From positions 1 through 46,236 of IMG/VR virus record IMGVR_UViG_3300050821_011268: a stretch of 46,236 nucleotides of DNA; one strand, given 5' to 3'. This document shows, piece after piece, positions 5,180 to 21,568 of the stretch; position 1 is the stretch's first letter, and every line of letters starts with the position of its first letter. Below the pieces are notes generated by a model. It searched no databases, had not been told where the DNA came from, and saw nothing but the letters and a program-made list of their open reading frames with translations. A program made the translations under genes and the position numbers. This DNA comes from a virus.

Positions 5180-5415
5180 TCTTCACATTCGATCACATTG
5201 GTGGGATTGTACATCTTAAACTTGTGCATACTTCCCCATTCACATCCCGTGAGCGTGAGAAACGAATGCGAATTGTTCCAACTTTCGCATACCGGATTGA
5301 ATGCGGAATAGCCGTTTCGCACGCAATATTTTATTTTCTTTGTCGCGCCCGCGTCCGTGTTTCTGGTACAGCTTATCGAGAGAAAAGAAAGAGTCACGCA
5401 TAGGGTGAATTTCAC
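5176..5415 (-). CDS. Small exported, Cys-rich protein, possibly a lipoprotein
   Basis: MKFTLCVTLSFLSISC is signal-like but its lipobox is non-canonical. Five further Cys follow. ATGA overlaps on both sides. Confidence 0.5.
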   Translation of the reverse strand: MKFTLCVTLSFLSISCTRNTDAGATKKIKYCVRNGYSAFNPVCESWNNSHSFLTLTGCEWGSMHKFKMYNPTNVIECEE

Positions 5416-5642
5416 GTTTTTTCCTTCATCTCGTGTGTCTCCGGATCGAGCAATTCCGCACGATGAATTTGCACGTTACCTAGGAATTTAAGCCGCACTT
5501 GTTGGCCTTTTATTTCCACCACTTGGATTTCTAAAAGTCCATGTTCCACCATCACACTTTCGCCCAGTTTTCTGGTGAGGACTAATCCCGGCCGTCTGTC
5601 CACGGTGGTGTGATTGGGTTTCTTCTTGATGATCTCGGTCAT
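5412..5642 (-). CDS. csrA: CsrA/RsmA-family RNA-binding protein homologue with a 17-aa N-terminal extension
   Basis: LVLTRKLGESVMV ... VVEIKGQQVRL ... VQIHRAEL aligns by eye with E. coli CsrA (LILTRRVGETLMI ... VLGVKGNQVRI ... VSVHREEI). Confidence 0.7.
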   Translation of the reverse strand: MTEIIKKKPNHTTVDRRPGLVLTRKLGESVMVEHGLLEIQVVEIKGQQVRLKFLGNVQIHRAELLDPETHEMKEKT

Positions 5643-9658: not shown

Positions 9659-9855
9659 TTTCGTCTCCTTCTCACTGCAAAAATCAAAGCGCTATTTTTA
9701 TACACTTCACTGCGTGGCACGAGAGCGGTTAAACCGAAATCTACATCAAGAATTTTAAGAGTTTGGTTTCTCGTAATGGGCGTTTCGATGGTGAGGACAA
9801 GTGGTTCTAGCCCCATCCGTTTAAGTATTCGATCCATCAATCTAAACCACAGCAT
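9655..9855 (-). CDS. Hypothetical protein
   Basis: 66-aa ORF with an ATGA overlap downstream. Confidence 0.45.
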   Translation of the reverse strand: MLWFRLMDRILKRMGLEPLVLTIETPITRNQTLKILDVDFGLTALVPRSEVYKNSALIFAVRRRRK

Positions 9856-10075
9856 GTGTGCTCCTCATAGATATCGGTTTACCTCTATCTTTTTGCATGC
9901 AGCCGCACGATTTGGTAGATTTATTTGCGATATTTTCTTCCCTCACTGTCGTCACTTGACCACACGTACATTCCGCGCGCCAGAATGACCGACCTTTGTT
10001 ATCCCTGCCGCCCCAATCAATGATGGTGAGTCTAAAATGCGTTTCCCCTACGCGATTTCTTCGCGGTTCCCCCAT
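9842..10075 (-). CDS. Small zinc-ribbon protein, CxC...CGC family (paralogue 1 of 3)
   Basis: FRLTIID...GRSFWRAECTCGQVTTV...KSTKSCGC aligns with ORFs 16720..16938 and 16938..17195. I chose the internal ATG at 10075 because the longer track ORF runs into the tRNA-like gene. Confidence 0.6.
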   Translation of the reverse strand: MGEPRRNRVGETHFRLTIIDWGGRDNKGRSFWRAECTCGQVTTVREENIANKSTKSCGCMQKDRGKPISMRSTHAVV

Positions 10076-10096
10076 AATATTTCCCCTTTTAAAAAG

Positions 10097-10198
10097 CGCC
10101 CAAGGAGGGACTCGAACCCCCAACTTCCGGTTTGACATCTCCGGCGCCCTAGGAAGCCGGACGAACTCCGATACTCTACCTTCTTGAGTTACTTGGGC
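10097..10198 (-). tRNA. tRNA-like gene, non-canonical (102 nt; anticodon not assignable)
   Basis: Minus strand: acceptor GCCCAAG/CTTGGGC, D arm ACTC-AAGAAGGTA-GAGT, T arm GGGGG-TTCGAGT-CCCTC. About 50 nt lie between the D and T arms with no 5-bp stem / 7-nt loop carrying U33. Confidence 0.45.
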
Positions 10199-10342
10199 AC
10201 ATAAAGAGACTCTCCGTATTGCTGATTCGAACAGCTTAAGACCTTCTACTATCCGGACGAATCCGAATATGATCTTTGCCTCTTATGGAGAGACTTTCAG
10301 CAGGCAACCAACCCCCACATCATACGAAGAGCCCCTCAAAAC

Positions 10343-10696
10343 TTATTTCAACAATTTCAAAACAGCCGGATAATCGCTCTCTTCCAAATCATTCGGACTT
10401 TTCACTTTGAATTTTTTCAAAATGGGAATGGCCTTGGATTTGTCGCCTTTGTGTTTCTTGATGAATTTCTTAAAGGCATCCATGACTACGGCCAAAGTGG
10501 GACCGTCTTCTTCAGTGTCTTCGAAAGAGTCCTCTTCTTCGGTGGTGGTCTCTTCTTCGCCAAAGGTCTCTTCTTCCTCTTCTGGCGCGGGCTTCGTAGT
10601 TTTTGCAGGCTTTCCTTTTGCGGGCTTACTGACATAGGCCACAAGTACAGAGGCTTGGTCCGGTGTCAAGTCCGTGAAGGTTAGATCTATTCCCAT
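10343..10696 (-). CDS. Hypothetical highly acidic protein
   Basis: 117-aa ORF. The central run is PEEEEETFGEEETTTEEEDSFEDTEEDG, and the C-terminus is Lys-rich and helical. Confidence 0.55.
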   Translation of the reverse strand: MGIDLTFTDLTPDQASVLVAYVSKPAKGKPAKTTKPAPEEEEETFGEEETTTEEEDSFEDTEEDGPTLAVVMDAFKKFIKKHKGDKSKAIPILKKFKVKSPNDLEESDYPAVLKLLK

Positions 10697-16720: not shown

Positions 16721-16938
16721 TGGAGATAATAGAAATTGGAAAACAATTTTTCAGACTTCGCGTAGTTGGTCCAGCACCGAACGATTCAAAAGGGCGGCCG
16801 ATGTGGCACTGTCGATGCGAATGTGGAAATTTCAAAATGGTATTAAGTAGGAATTTGAGAAATCACTCAACTAAATCGTGTGGATGTCTACAACAAGAAG
16901 TATTTAGTATGCGTAAACGCTTGGCGGGATGGCATTAA
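16720..16938 (+). CDS. Small zinc-ribbon protein, CxC...CGC family (paralogue 2)
   Basis: FFRLRVV...GRPMWHCRCECGNFKMV...HSTKSCGC. The start at 16720 comes from the TAATG overlap, and the longer track ORF overlaps the upstream gene. Confidence 0.6.
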   Translation: MEIIEIGKQFFRLRVVGPAPNDSKGRPMWHCRCECGNFKMVLSRNLRNHSTKSCGCLQQEVFSMRKRLAGWH

Positions 16939-17195
16939 TGGCACAACCGATAAAATCACTGTTCGGTAAACAGTTCACAAGGCTCAGAGTTATTGCGCGT
17001 GAGGCGAATGTCGAGGGCCGTGTCCGGTGGCGCGTGAAATGTGAATGTGGCACGATTAAAGTGGTGGCGTCTCGCAATTTGCTTAATGGTACTACAAAGT
17101 CATGCGGATGTCTTAGGCTTCAACATTTGAGAGAGCGAAATGAAAAGAGAAATGAATACAGTTTCTTGGATGTGAAATTGGAGGACTTACCATGA
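16938..17195 (+). CDS. Small zinc-ribbon protein, CxC...CGC family (paralogue 3)
   Basis: FTRLRVI...GRVRWRVKCECGTIKVV...GTTKSCGC. TAATG overlap at 16936-16940. Confidence 0.6.
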   Translation: MAQPIKSLFGKQFTRLRVIAREANVEGRVRWRVKCECGTIKVVASRNLLNGTTKSCGCLRLQHLRERNEKRNEYSFLDVKLEDLP

Positions 17196-19342: not shown

Positions 19343-21568
19343 TTGAAAATGGCTAAGACAAGAAAGACAACCATTAAGACGCCGAAATTGCCTTCAGTCA
19401 CCGAGAGCATGCCGGGCTTTCAATTCAAGAACGATGGTGCGGTCGTCACACCACAAATCGAAACCGCTGTTTGGAATGGGCTCATGGAAGCGGTCTTGGG
19501 TCCGATGCCTTCGGGCATTCCCTTCGCGGGCCACAGTCAACCACTCAATCAAACGAATACGCTTTGGATAAATAATCGTTGGTATCTAGCATCCAACTTT
19601 CGACAACTCCTTTCAGAATCCTATGTCGAGCATGGCGTGATCCAAACCGTTGTCGATGTGCCGGTAGACGATGCTTTCCGTGGCGGAATCGAAGTGCATT
19701 CAAAAGAACTAGATCCGCGTGACATCGAACTTCTGTGCGGAGAGATGGAGGAGAAAGGTGATCTTATCGTTATTGGGCAGACCTGCAAATGGAATCGCCT
19801 ATTCGGTGGAGCTGGAACTGTTCTTAACGTGGACCAAGATCCAATGGAGCCGCTCAATCTCGATACGATCACACGATTTGAGATGTACGCGGCTGACATG
19901 TGGGAGCTATTCTGGAATAAACAGAATACAGAAGAGTATTCGATTGCCATTGATCTCGCTGCAAATATGGAGCGAATCGAATATTTTCAATTCTATGGTC
20001 ATAAGCTCCACAAATCTAAAGTCCTCAAGCAGAAAGGGATTGAGATTCCGTCGCTCATTCGCCCGAGGGTTCGTGGATGGGGAGTTAGCGTTGTCGAAGT
20101 ACTCATTAATTCCATCAACCAATATCTCAAAGCCAACAATTTAATCTTTGAAGTGCTCGATGAATTTAAAGTCGATTATTACAAGATCAAAGGCTTAGCG
20201 AATGCAGTCCTCACACCGGCAGGTACGGCCAACATTCGTAAGCATCTATCTGTCATGAACCAGCAAAAGAATTACAACAATGCGGCCGTGATGGATTCCG
20301 AAGACGATTGGATGCAACGTCAGCTTTCTTTCGCGGGGATTGCCGAAACCATGCAAGGTATCCGCATGCACATGGCTTGTGATGTTCGCATGCCGCTCTC
20401 TAAGATCTTTGGAATTTCTGCCACGGGCTTTGGCTCGGGCCAAGACGATATCGAGAATTACAATGCGATGGTCGAGAGCCAAGTCCGTCAGAAGGCTAAA
20501 TTTGAAATACTGAAAGTGGTCAAGATCCGTTGCCAACTTCTCTTCGGTCATGTGCCGGATGATTTACGTGTGGGCTTCAAATCACTTCGCATCCTTGGTG
20601 CCGAACAAGAAGAGAATGTGAAGACCCAGAAATTTAATCGCGTACTTCAAGCGCGAACGGCTGGTGAAGTGACAGCGCTTGAATTCAGAAACGCTATAAA
20701 CCGGGACATGCTACTTCCCATTCAGCTTGAGACAGATGAAGCAGCACTTTCAGCCGCAGCGGACGAGAAAGAATTGGCCGCATCGGAGAACGCCAAGATC
20801 TCCGGCAAAAGCGGGATCTCTCAAGATGCGATGTCGTCTACCACACCAAAGGTGGCCAAGAACTCAGCCGACGACGATCCGTATCCGAATTTTGTCGGTC
20901 CTAAAATCGTAACTGTGGGCATCGTATGCGGCGATGAAATGTTGGCTTGTCTTCGCCGCGACAATAACAAATGGAATAATCCAGGCGGCCATATGGACCA
21001 TGGTGAATCCGTGAGAGCTGCGGCTGTAAGAGAAGTGTTTGAAGAGACGGGCATTGGGATAGTACCGCACCGTTTGGAGCGATTGAAACCCATTCAGCTC
21101 AAAAGTCATCGCGGCGGAAAAGATTTTTGCATCTACCCATTCATTGCCCGCATAAAAACCAAAATATTCCCTACCACTTTCAATGATCCCGATTGCGAAT
21201 TCTCCCGGTTTGCTTGGGTAAAAATTGACCCGGCCACTGAAGAGCTTAAAGCGGACAATCGCCATGCGGCCAAAGACCAAGTGGTGGAGCATTTATTGAA
21301 GTCGCTTAAGAATTCATATGTTTCGGATAAGGGTTACGACAAGGACAATAATCAAATTGATCAAGATGCATTCTTCGCGCGCATCCGAGAAGAGGGGACC
21401 GGCGCTCAAGATCCCAAAGACCAAAGCAAGAATGCTGTTCAGAATCCGGGGAAGGTGGATGAAGCCAAATGGGAGCGGGCCAAGAAAAAGGTCAAAGAAG
21501 AATACGGCGAGATCAGATGGCCGGTCGTCACCTATGTCTATAAGAAAATGGGCGGAACATTTCAATGA
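19343..21568 (+). CDS. Portal protein (DUF1073-like) fused to a C-terminal Nudix hydrolase domain
   Basis: 741-aa ORF directly after terL. The N-terminal ~470 aa are portal-like. The Nudix box GGHMDHGESVRAAAVREVFEETGI lies at nt 20984-21055. Confidence 0.85.
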   Translation: MKMAKTRKTTIKTPKLPSVTESMPGFQFKNDGAVVTPQIETAVWNGLMEAVLGPMPSGIPFAGHSQPLNQTNTLWINNRWYLASNFRQLLSESYVEHGVIQTVVDVPVDDAFRGGIEVHSKELDPRDIELLCGEMEEKGDLIVIGQTCKWNRLFGGAGTVLNVDQDPMEPLNLDTITRFEMYAADMWELFWNKQNTEEYSIAIDLAANMERIEYFQFYGHKLHKSKVLKQKGIEIPSLIRPRVRGWGVSVVEVLINSINQYLKANNLIFEVLDEFKVDYYKIKGLANAVLTPAGTANIRKHLSVMNQQKNYNNAAVMDSEDDWMQRQLSFAGIAETMQGIRMHMACDVRMPLSKIFGISATGFGSGQDDIENYNAMVESQVRQKAKFEILKVVKIRCQLLFGHVPDDLRVGFKSLRILGAEQEENVKTQKFNRVLQARTAGEVTALEFRNAINRDMLLPIQLETDEAALSAAADEKELAASENAKISGKSGISQDAMSSTTPKVAKNSADDDPYPNFVGPKIVTVGIVCGDEMLACLRRDNNKWNNPGGHMDHGESVRAAAVREVFEETGIGIVPHRLERLKPIQLKSHRGGKDFCIYPFIARIKTKIFPTTFNDPDCEFSRFAWVKIDPATEELKADNRHAAKDQVVEHLLKSLKNSYVSDKGYDKDNNQIDQDAFFARIREEGTGAQDPKDQSKNAVQNPGKVDEAKWERAKKKVKEEYGEIRWPVVTYVYKKMGGTFQ

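What the first reader, a model, noticed from the sequence alone, without database searches (positions are those of the whole stretch)
10097..10340. 102-nt tRNA-like gene without a recognisable anticodon arm, plus a repeated hairpin and a second T-arm-like element upstream
On the minus strand, the acceptor stem (GCCCAAG/CTTGGGC, extendable to 9 bp), the D arm (ACTC-AAGAAGGTA-GAGT) and the T arm (GGGGG-TTCGAGT-CCCTC) are canonical. The ~50 nt between the D and T arms cannot be folded into a 5-bp stem with a 7-nt loop carrying U33. Three alternative helices compete: TCGGA-GTTCG-TCCGG, TCCGGC-10 nt-GCCGGA and CTTCC...GGAAG. The hairpin TCGGA(G)TTCGTCCGG recurs ~95 nt upstream (plus-strand 10157-10171 and 10253-10266). 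GCTG-TTCGAAT-CAGC (10221-10235) is a second T-arm-like hairpin. This could be a degenerate tRNA, a tRNA with an insertion, or a tRNA-like decoy or regulatory RNA.
Basis: seen in the sequence. Interest (0 to 1): 0.6.

Follow-up and report, generated by a model that had tools for sequence, protein, structure and literature searches.

The report
Phage tRNA look-alike with oversized anticodon arm
A complete 46-kb phage genome carries, between two early genes, a gene with a perfect tRNA upper half but a 45-base irregular helix where the anticodon arm should be. A second, 144-base folded RNA with the same small hairpin sits directly upstream, and the pair most likely acts as non-decoding tRNA mimics, a poorly understood kind of phage RNA that recurs in many other viral contigs.

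Summary
Rfam's tRNA model hits 10198..10097 (-) at 44.8 bits (cut-off 29), with 37 nt where 9 are expected in the anticodon loop. Default ARAGORN finds nothing, and ARAGORN with introns gives only a contrived tRNA-Thr. Acceptor, D and T arms and the main tertiary-contact positions are canonical. No 5-bp stem with a 7-nt U33 loop exists.

Removing 28 nt can restore an anticodon arm (Asp GUC, Glu, Gly or Arg), but only with a mismatched fifth stem pair and no unique solution. Archaeal-type splice motifs occur at chance level.

The 144 nt upstream (10199-10342) form a second very stable structure (-51 kcal/mol, z -3.8). It has a 16-bp closing helix, a canonical T-arm hairpin and a copy of the 15-nt hairpin, and it aligns weakly with the tRNA-like gene (p about 0.01).

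No homologue of this locus was found, so no covariation test was possible. One truncated IMG/VR scan did recover at least 41 other viral tRNA genes with 21-35 extra nt in the same region, including a family with covarying stems. This scan has flagged similar RNAs before in other genomes. Lak-phage "enigmatic tRNA introns" are the closest published match.

Best reading (about 0.5): a selected, non-decoding tRNA mimic and processing module.

The parts
10097..10198 (-). 102-nt tRNA-like gene (no CCA encoded; discriminator G at 10097)
   Evidence: Rfam RF00005 44.8 bits, model 1-71 complete; the cloverleaf upper half is also recovered by thermodynamic folding alone
10192..10198 (-). acceptor stem, 5' strand; pairs with 10098-10104
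   Evidence: 7/7 Watson-Crick pairs; pair probability 0.92-1.0
10173..10189 (-). D arm (4-bp stem, 9-nt loop with A14, G18 G19, A21 equivalents)
10127..10171 (-). expanded 'anticodon' domain, 45 nt: outer 4-bp helix, internal loop of 6 x 9 nt, inner 6-bp helix with a 10-nt cap
   Evidence: Infernal places 37 nt where the model has 9; the inner helix appears in all 25 best suboptimal folds; probabilities 0.76 and 0.45
10157..10171 (-). 15-nt hairpin, copy 1 (alternative fold at the position of the anticodon arm)
   Evidence: probability 0.12
10134..10136 (-). GUC triplet inside a U33/A37-like 7-mer on the 3' side of the internal loop (possible relic Asp anticodon)
10105..10121 (-). T arm (5-bp stem, canonical 7-nt T loop)
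10199..10342 (-). 144-nt upstream structured companion RNA
   Evidence: MFE -51 kcal/mol; shuffles -37.2 +/- 3.7; z -3.76; 0 of 200 shuffles fold as well; folds independently of the tRNA-like gene within the 269-nt spacer
10322..10337 (-). 5' strand of the 16-bp closing helix (pairs with 10204-10219)
10204..10219 (-). 3' strand of the 16-bp closing helix
10278..10294 (-). 6-bp hairpin at the D-arm-like position of the companion RNA
   Evidence: aligns with the D arm of the tRNA-like gene
10238..10276 (-). long irregular arm of the companion RNA; holds hairpin copy 2 (10253-10266) capped by a UUCG loop
10221..10235 (-). T-arm-like hairpin (4-bp stem, canonical T-loop sequence), 1 nt before the closing helix
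10343..10696 (-). upstream neighbour: acidic 117-aa protein; its stop codon abuts the companion RNA
9842..10075 (-). downstream neighbour: 77-aa stand-alone CapR zinc-finger-like domain protein; start codon 21 nt after the tRNA-like gene

Best explanation
The 267-nt spacer between two early genes encodes two tandem tRNA-derived structured RNAs that do not decode. The downstream one keeps an intact tRNA upper half: acceptor/T minihelix, D/T elbow and the usual tertiary-contact nucleotides. That upper half is what RNase P, RNase Z, the CCA-adding enzyme and T-loop modification enzymes recognise. Its anticodon arm is replaced by a 45-nt irregular helix, which I infer is too long to fit the ribosomal decoding site. 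The spacer has no promoter of its own, so both RNAs are probably cut out of the early polycistronic transcript. RNase P cleavage at the 5' end of the tRNA-like gene would also create the 3' end of the 144-nt companion RNA, and 3' processing would leave the next gene with a 21-nt leader. The released RNAs would then act as stable tRNA mimics, either as a decoy for or binder of a tRNA-recognising host or phage factor, or as a scaffold that displays the shared hairpin. Shown: the sequence features, the folds, the absence of a decodable anticodon arm, and the existence of a wider class of such genes in viral contigs. Inferred: transcription, processing, stability and the target.
For: The tRNA model is matched end to end at 44.8 bits despite a 28-nt excess. 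Acceptor, D and T stems have 7/7, 4/4 and 5/5 pairs, and U8, A14, A15-U48, G18 G19, A21, G46, G53-C61, U54 U55 C56 and A58 are all present. The anticodon domain meets no decoding rule. The whole spacer folds into two independent modules at -90.3 kcal/mol, and the upstream one has z -3.76. The two modules share a 15-nt hairpin found nowhere else in the genome and align from the acceptor end through the D arm to the hairpin: score 31 against 19.5 +/- 3.6, with 5 of 500 shuffles as good. That suggests an old duplication after which both copies stayed highly structured. No sigma-70-like promoter lies in the spacer. The genome uses the standard code with all three stop codons, so no suppressor tRNA is needed. 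Default ARAGORN calls none of the 47 unique sequences a tRNA, while all 9 tested score 40-61 bits with Rfam tRNA. Many lie 3-12 nt from ordinary tRNAs in arrays. One 12-member family has covarying stems and no anticodon-like loop. Published parallels are unexplained introns in Lak phage tRNAs (PMC6784885) and T4 RNAC/RNAD of unknown role in the tRNA region (PMC3014915).
Against: No homologue of this locus was found, so there is no covariation or conservation evidence for either RNA. The z-score of the tRNA-like gene alone is unremarkable (-0.73). A recent insertion into a working tRNA would also leave the upper half intact for a while. There are no expression data. The fold of the middle domain is ambiguous (folds A and B differ by 1.7 kcal/mol). 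No partner protein or target was identified.
Confidence: 0.5

Rival explanations
1. It is a real decoding tRNA, most likely tRNA-Asp(GUC), whose gene holds a 28-nt intervening sequence. That sequence would be removed after transcription by an endonuclease plus an RNA ligase, as proposed for the 'enigmatic introns' of Lak phage tRNAs.
For: Deleting 28 nt restores a 17-nt anticodon arm with U33 and A37; the GUC reading is obtained from several cut positions. The discriminator is G73, as in bacterial tRNA-Asp (established knowledge). The 3' half resembles phage tRNA-Asn and tRNA-Asp genes at 75-81% identity, though only at E about 1. Oversized phage tRNA genes read as intron-bearing are published (PMC6784885).
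Against: The excision is not unique: Asp, Glu, Gly and Arg loops all result from 28-nt deletions. Every product has only 4 of 5 stem pairs, with an A-A or G-A mismatch at 31-39, and a purine at position 32. BHB-like motifs occur at chance level (4 observed, 2.6 +/- 2.0 in shuffles), and none coincides with a deletion that restores a clean arm. At 28 nt the insert is far too short for a group I intron, and Rfam finds no intron or ribozyme. The helix is 4 + 6 + 2 bp broken by large loops, a poor RNase III substrate (inference). No RNA ligase or splicing endonuclease appeared among the genes scanned. G10, an Asp identity element (from memory), is A here.
Confidence: 0.15
2. It is a dead tRNA gene. 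A phage tRNA was disrupted by an internal duplication or insertion of about 28 nt, and the upstream element is an older decayed copy. Neither has a function.
For: The two halves of the middle domain align weakly as a tandem duplication (36 of 1000 shuffles do as well). No homologue with the same design was found for this locus. The nearest helicase relatives examined carry no tRNA at this position. A distant relative has a truncated 56-nt tRNA-Asp fragment near its helicase.
Against: If the duplication is old, as its low identity implies, neutral decay should also have hit the upper half. Yet every stem pair and tertiary nucleotide there is intact. The upstream element is far more stable than shuffled sequence (z -3.76). 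The spacer in an otherwise tightly packed genome is entirely taken up by the two folds. Similar oversized tRNA genes recur in viral contigs, and at least one family shows covariation.
Confidence: 0.25
3. The element acts at the DNA level, as an attachment site built on a tRNA gene or as a replication or packaging signal, and not as an RNA.
For: Phages often carry tRNA-derived attP cores (established knowledge). A distant relative carries a partial tRNA-Asp.
Against: No integrase was found among the genes scanned. The record has direct terminal repeats and is rated complete. A whole tRNA with matched 5' and 3' acceptor strands and tertiary nucleotides is not what an attP core needs. The strong RNA-type fold of the neighbouring 144 nt would remain unexplained.
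Confidence: 0.04

Closest known systems
Oversized phage tRNA genes with 'enigmatic introns' (Lak megaphages, Devoto et al. 2019, PMC6784885)
   Same: A phage gene with a tRNA body that is longer than a tRNA because of extra sequence in the anticodon region. Bacterial-mode tRNA finders do not classify it, and its mechanism is unknown.
   Different: The Lak cases were read as introns in tRNAs with assignable anticodons, in 540-kb recoded genomes. Here the phage is 46 kb with the standard code, no unique anticodon can be assigned, and a paralogous structured RNA sits upstream.
Canonical tRNA (Rfam RF00005)
   Same: Acceptor, D and T arms, a 5-nt variable loop, tertiary-contact nucleotides and G73; scores above the gathering threshold.
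   Different: 102 nt long; no 5-bp stem with a 7-nt anticodon loop; rejected by default ARAGORN.
Bacterial Y RNAs with a tRNA-like domain
   Same: A non-decoding RNA that mimics the tRNA elbow with a canonical T arm. The upstream 144-nt RNA resembles it in having a long closing helix and a T-arm hairpin.
   Different: No Rfam match to any Y-RNA family even at E up to 10. No Ro/Rsr gene was seen among the genes scanned. The downstream element has free acceptor ends like a true tRNA.
T4 RNAC and RNAD (small stable RNAs of the T4 tRNA region, PMC3014915)
   Same: Phage-encoded stable small RNAs linked to tRNA genes, with unknown roles.
   Different: No sequence relation was tested or expected. 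The T4 RNAs lie in a tRNA cluster, whereas this phage has no ordinary tRNA at all.
mascRNA/MALAT1-type tRNA-like 3'-end processing elements, and engineered 'tRNA scaffolds'
   Same: A tRNA-like fold is used so that RNase P and RNase Z cut a longer transcript and release or stabilise a neighbouring or embedded RNA. This is the working principle proposed here.
   Different: The Rfam mascRNA hit is 14.9 bits against a threshold of 42.5, so it is not a member. Those systems are eukaryotic or artificial. Processing here is inferred, not shown.

Membership tests
Canonical tRNA (RF00005) | Score at or above the Rfam gathering threshold over the full model | tested here: met
   44.8 bits against 29, model positions 1-71
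Canonical tRNA (RF00005) | 7-bp acceptor, 4-bp D stem, 5-bp T stem with a canonical T loop, conserved tertiary nucleotides | tested here: met
   All pairs standard; U8, A14, G18 G19, A21, G46, U48, G53-C61, U54 U55 C56 and A58 read
Canonical tRNA (RF00005) | 5-bp anticodon stem closing a 7-nt loop with U33 and a purine at 37 | tested here: not met
   No such contiguous arm between the D and T arms; 37 nt where the model has 9; default ARAGORN finds no gene
tRNA with archaeal/eukaryal protein-spliced intron | Bulge-helix-bulge motif at the exon-intron junctions whose removal gives a canonical anticodon arm | tested here: not met
   4 relaxed BHB-like motifs against 2.6 +/- 2.0 in shuffles; none matches the 28-nt deletions that restore an arm; ARAGORN -i gives only a 12-nt 'intron' with a mismatched stem and a poorly paired long extra arm
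tRNA with archaeal/eukaryal protein-spliced intron | Host or virus encodes a splicing endonuclease and ligase | not testable with these tools
   Host unknown. Shine-Dalgarno-like sites before most genes suggest a bacterium. None seen among the scanned phage genes.
tRNA with group I intron | Self-splicing intron of about 200 nt or more in the anticodon loop | tested here: not met
   The excess is 28 nt; no intron or ribozyme family in Rfam at gathering score or at E up to 10
tmRNA | tRNA-like domain formed by the 5' and 3' ends plus a tag reading frame | tested here: not met
   ARAGORN tmRNA search negative; no Rfam tmRNA hit
Class II tRNA (long variable arm) / tRNA-Sec | Normal anticodon arm followed by a paired extra arm | tested here: not met
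   Fold B gives a 5+2-bp extra arm, but the 'anticodon' hairpin then has a 5-nt loop; fold B is 1.7 kcal/mol worse than fold A
YrlA / bacterial Y RNA | Match to the Rfam family; Ro-binding helix; linked rsr gene | tested here: not met
   No hit at E up to 10 in 9900-10600. No TROVE protein among the scanned genes, though not every gene was scanned.
Oversized phage tRNA-like genes (anticodon-region expansion) | Rfam-tRNA-positive, rejected by default ARAGORN, 20-35 extra nt between the D and T arms, encoded by a virus | tested here: met
   Window. Comparison set: 41 genes with 7/7 acceptor pairs from one scan; 0 of 47 unique sequences called by default ARAGORN; 9 of 9 tested score 40-61 bits with Rfam tRNA.
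Oversized phage tRNA-like genes (anticodon-region expansion) | Conservation with compensatory changes among relatives | tested here: inconclusive

The most novel reading that the evidence does not exclude
The two RNAs are an anti-defence module. They would be non-decoding tRNA mimics, cut out of the early transcript by host tRNA-processing enzymes, that soak up or misdirect a host tRNA-targeting immune nuclease or another tRNA-recognising factor. They lie in an early counter-defence island between a DNA-mimic-like acidic protein and a CapR-domain DNA binder of the kind recently shown to silence CRISPR-Cas genes (bioRxiv 10.64898/2026.02.23.707548). They would belong to a broad, essentially undescribed class of phage 'tRNA-scaffolded' RNAs.
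Probability: 0.15. Interest if true: 0.8.

Novelty: new variant of a known kind. Interest (0 to 1): 0.5.

Why it matters
Phage tRNA genes are normally read as codon-usage helpers or as replacements for tRNAs destroyed by host defences. Genes that keep everything a tRNA needs for processing but cannot decode point to a different use of the tRNA shape, as a self-processing stable chassis or a molecular decoy. Such genes are invisible to default ARAGORN, and Devoto et al. report that bacterial-mode tRNAscan-SE could not classify the Lak examples. One truncated search found dozens in viral contigs, and the only published comment I found calls them 'enigmatic introns'. This locus adds a compact case in a small, complete, standard-code phage that has no ordinary tRNA. 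It has a paralogous companion RNA and lies among candidate counter-defence genes, which makes it a convenient system for testing what these RNAs do.

Tried and rejected
- **Homologue search by neighbouring protein.** I used the SNF2 helicase as anchor. IMG/VR gave 6 loci at or below 29% identity, JGI metagenomes gave 40 loci at or below 38%, and GTDB genomes gave 2 MAG contigs at 32-34%. Rfam and ARAGORN found no comparable RNA downstream of any of them. The only finds were an ordinary tRNA-Met 3 kb away (L010) and a 56-nt tRNA-Asp fragment in a distant relative.
- **DNA searches.** The phage collection gave no match to the 901-nt region and only short T-arm matches to the gene. An exact 25-nt T-arm/acceptor pattern gave 0 hits in IMG/VR.
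- **Amber suppressor** (CUA lies in the apical loop). Rejected: TAG ends 12 of 67 crude ORF calls and long ORFs are open under code 11.
- **CsrA sponge** (a CsrA-like gene lies at 5412-5642). Rejected: I counted six GGA triplets by eye in the 246 nt, against about four expected, and they lie in stems.
- **Other RNA classes.** Group II intron, retron and HEARO-type RNA: no Rfam hit, and no reverse transcriptase among the genes scanned. tmRNA: negative.
- **Literature.** Searches for a description of phage tRNAs with extended anticodon arms found only the Lak 'enigmatic introns'.
- **Not available.** tRNAscan-SE could not be run.

Full report
**Setting.** The window is a complete IMG/VR virus record of 46,236 bp with direct terminal repeats. 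Genes on the minus strand from about 1.7 to 12.3 kb encode replication and early functions: family A DNA polymerase, a Gp2.5-like single-strand binding protein, a DUF2800 nuclease and an SNF2 helicase. The plus strand encodes a primase-polymerase, terminase, a portal fused to NUDIX, and head and tail proteins. All three stop codons are used (TGA 28, TAA 27, TAG 12 in a crude gene set), and Shine-Dalgarno-like motifs precede most genes. The phage therefore uses the standard code and probably infects a bacterium. The finding lies in a 267-nt spacer between a 117-aa acidic protein gene (10343-10696) and a 77-aa gene that most plausibly starts at 10075.

Rfam's tRNA model matches 10198..10097 on the minus strand over its full length at 44.8 bits (gathering score 29; E 1.9e-6 for the whole window). 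It is the only Rfam family in the window. Infernal places 37 nt where the model has 9, inside the anticodon arm.
- The acceptor stem has 7/7 pairs, the D stem 4/4 and the T stem 5/5.
- The nucleotides that build the tRNA elbow are all present: U8, A14, A15-U48, G18 G19, A21, G46, G53-C61, U54 U55 C56 and A58.
- The discriminator is G and no CCA is encoded.
- Default ARAGORN finds neither a tRNA nor a tmRNA.
- A scan of every 17-nt stretch between the D and T arms finds no stem of at least 4 bp with a 7-nt loop carrying U33.
- The 15-nt hairpin occurs exactly twice in the genome, both times here, and never in 100 shuffles.

With introns allowed, ARAGORN returns a tRNA-Thr(CGU) with a 12-nt intron, but that model has a mismatched anticodon stem and a long extra arm held by non-standard pairs.

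**The middle domain.** Thermodynamic folding recovers the upper half of the cloverleaf unaided (acceptor probability 0.92-1.0, D 0.8-0.87, T 0.66-0.72). For the middle it prefers one long irregular arm (fold A, -35.3 kcal/mol): an outer 4-bp helix (probability about 0.45), an internal loop of 6 x 9 nt, and an inner 6-bp helix (0.76) with a 10-nt cap. Fold B is the repeated hairpin at the anticodon-arm position followed by a 5+2-bp extra arm. It is only 1.7 kcal/mol worse (-33.6 kcal/mol; probabilities 0.12 and 0.2). In fold A the arm is about 10 bp longer than a tRNA anticodon arm, and in fold B the loop has 5 nt. From the fixed geometry of tRNA on the ribosome, I infer that neither could decode.

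**Is it an interrupted tRNA?** Deleting 28 nt does restore a 17-nt arm with U33 and A37, but not uniquely.
- Different cut points give GUC (Asp), UUC (Glu), UCC (Gly) or UCG (Arg).
- Every product has only four stem pairs plus an A-A or G-A mismatch, and a purine at position 32.
- I removed every possible single segment of 6-45 nt and ran default ARAGORN on each product. This gave 726 acceptable 'tRNAs' of more than 20 kinds, with Asp(GUC) and Glu(UUC) the most frequent. ARAGORN acceptance therefore does not discriminate between readings.
- Relaxed bulge-helix-bulge motifs occur 4 times, against 2.6 +/- 2.0 in shuffles, and none coincides with a restoring deletion.
- The insert is far too short for a group I intron, and no ribozyme or intron family matches even at E up to 10.
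- The helix is too short and too interrupted to look like an RNase III site (inference).

GUC in a U33/A37-like 7-mer, together with G73, is the best guess for ancestry. Similarity of the 3' half to phage tRNA-Asn and tRNA-Asp genes is not significant (E about 1).

**The upstream element is a second RNA.** The 144 nt from the stop codon of the acidic-protein gene to the tRNA-like gene (10199-10342) fold to -51 kcal/mol. Shuffles give -37.2 +/- 3.7 (z -3.76), and none of 200 folds as well.
- A 16-bp helix closes a junction that carries a 6-bp hairpin, then 1 nt.
- Next comes a long irregular arm whose tip is the second copy of the hairpin, capped by UUCG, then 2 nt.
- Then comes the hairpin with a canonical T-loop sequence, then 1 nt.

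This order and spacing follow the D arm, anticodon arm and T arm of a tRNA, apart from a 27-nt linker after the 5' strand of the closing helix. The tRNA model does not match the element. It aligns with the tRNA-like gene from the end of the acceptor strand through the D arm to the hairpin, at score 31 against 19.5 +/- 3.6, with 5 of 500 shuffles as good. That points to an old tandem duplication, although the shared hairpin drives much of the score. The whole spacer folds as two independent modules (-90.3 kcal/mol). No promoter-like site lies in it, so the RNAs would be made by read-through from the early operon.

**No homologue of this locus.** The adjacent SNF2 helicase has relatives at or below 29% identity in IMG/VR, at or below 38% in JGI metagenomes and at 32-34% in two MAG contigs. 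None carries a comparable RNA. DNA searches found nothing. The folds therefore rest on one sequence, which is the main weakness of every functional claim here.

**A wider class exists.** I searched IMG/VR for a common D-arm word and T-arm word separated by 48-62 nt instead of the usual 27 or so.
- 41 stretches have a 7/7 acceptor stem in the correct register, against none when the 3' strand is taken 20 nt further on.
- The 54 stretches with at least 6 of 7 acceptor pairs collapse to 47 unique sequences of 94-109 nt. Default ARAGORN calls none of them.
- All nine that I passed to Rfam score 40-61 bits as tRNA, like this one.
- About half lie within tRNA arrays, 3-12 nt from ordinary tRNAs. The rest are solitary, as here.
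- Most keep a 4-7-bp stem at the anticodon-stem position and a normal variable loop, with the excess inside.
- A 12-member family carries a conserved module with two covarying stems and no anticodon-like loop, so it is a selected non-decoding RNA.
- Three loci (L069, L071, L124) share this locus's layout: stem, 4 nt, hairpin, conserved 7-mer, stem. The hairpin's sequence differs between loci while its pairing is kept.

I found no paper that explains such genes. Devoto et al. reported 'enigmatic introns' in Lak phage tRNAs and stated that introns in phage tRNAs had not been reported before (PMC6784885). T4 makes two small RNAs of unknown role from its tRNA region (PMC3014915). Earlier notes of this scan describe similar tRNA look-alikes in other phage genomes; 81 notes matched my words. 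I used them as leads only.

**Verdict.** The most likely reading (about 0.5) is a pair of tRNA-derived, non-decoding RNAs. They would be released from the early transcript by the host's tRNA-processing enzymes and act as stable mimics or scaffolds. A dead gene (0.25) and a tRNA that needs an unknown excision step (0.15) remain open. A DNA-level role is unlikely (0.04).

The neighbours hint at a counter-defence setting. They are an acidic protein noted earlier as a possible DNA mimic and a stand-alone CapR zinc-finger-like domain protein, a domain recently tied to silencing of CRISPR-Cas genes. This is inference only.

Noticed in passing
window 9842-10075 (-) and 16929-17195 (+): Two small paralogous proteins (77 and 88 aa) consist of little more than a CapR zinc-finger-like DNA-binding domain with the CxC...CxC cysteines. 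They match the middle of PHROG 374 'HNH endonuclease'. They could be relics of a homing endonuclease or DNA-binding regulators of the CasPR kind.
   Followed up: partly
IMG/VR loci L060, L086, L096, L097, L101, L106, L115, L117, L123, L130, L140, L143: A conserved family of roughly 100-nt tRNA-bodied genes, mostly inside phage tRNA arrays. The anticodon region holds a conserved module with two covarying stems (CG/UA/GC changes) and no anticodon-like loop. ARAGORN with introns assigns them inconsistent identities.
   Followed up: partly
IMG/VR loci L069, L071, L124: tRNA-bodied genes with encoded CCA whose anticodon stem encloses 4 nt, a hairpin and a conserved 7-mer. The hairpin differs in sequence between loci but stays paired. 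This is the same layout as the window's element.
   Followed up: partly
IMG/VR loci L076, L089, L095, L172, L173, L176, L178-L181: Another conserved RNA-like sequence of about 110 nt, found in at least 10 viral contigs, ends in a canonical T arm but lacks a matching acceptor stem in tRNA register. I could not identify it.
   Followed up: no
L008 1501-1556 (contig IMGVR_UViG_3300030329_002700, a distant helicase relative): A 56-nt tRNA-Asp(GUC)-like fragment with acceptor 5' strand, D arm and anticodon arm but no T arm. It may be an attachment-site core or a decayed tRNA.
   Followed up: no
window 19343-21568 (+): The portal protein is fused to a C-terminal NUDIX hydrolase domain.
   Followed up: no
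window 5412-5642 (-): A small protein with a CsrA-like RNA-binding regulator match (PHROG 9500, E 1.2e-7).
   Followed up: no
window 10295-10321 (-): Inside the companion RNA there is a 9-codon reading frame (ATG ATG ... TGA) preceded by a purine-rich Shine-Dalgarno-like run. It is probably coincidental (read).
   Followed up: no
L096 2958-3395 and L062 3411-3522: One locus with an oversized tRNA gene also carries a GOLLD RNA next to its tRNAs (194.9 bits). Another carries a second oversized tRNA hit of 112 nt.
   Followed up: no
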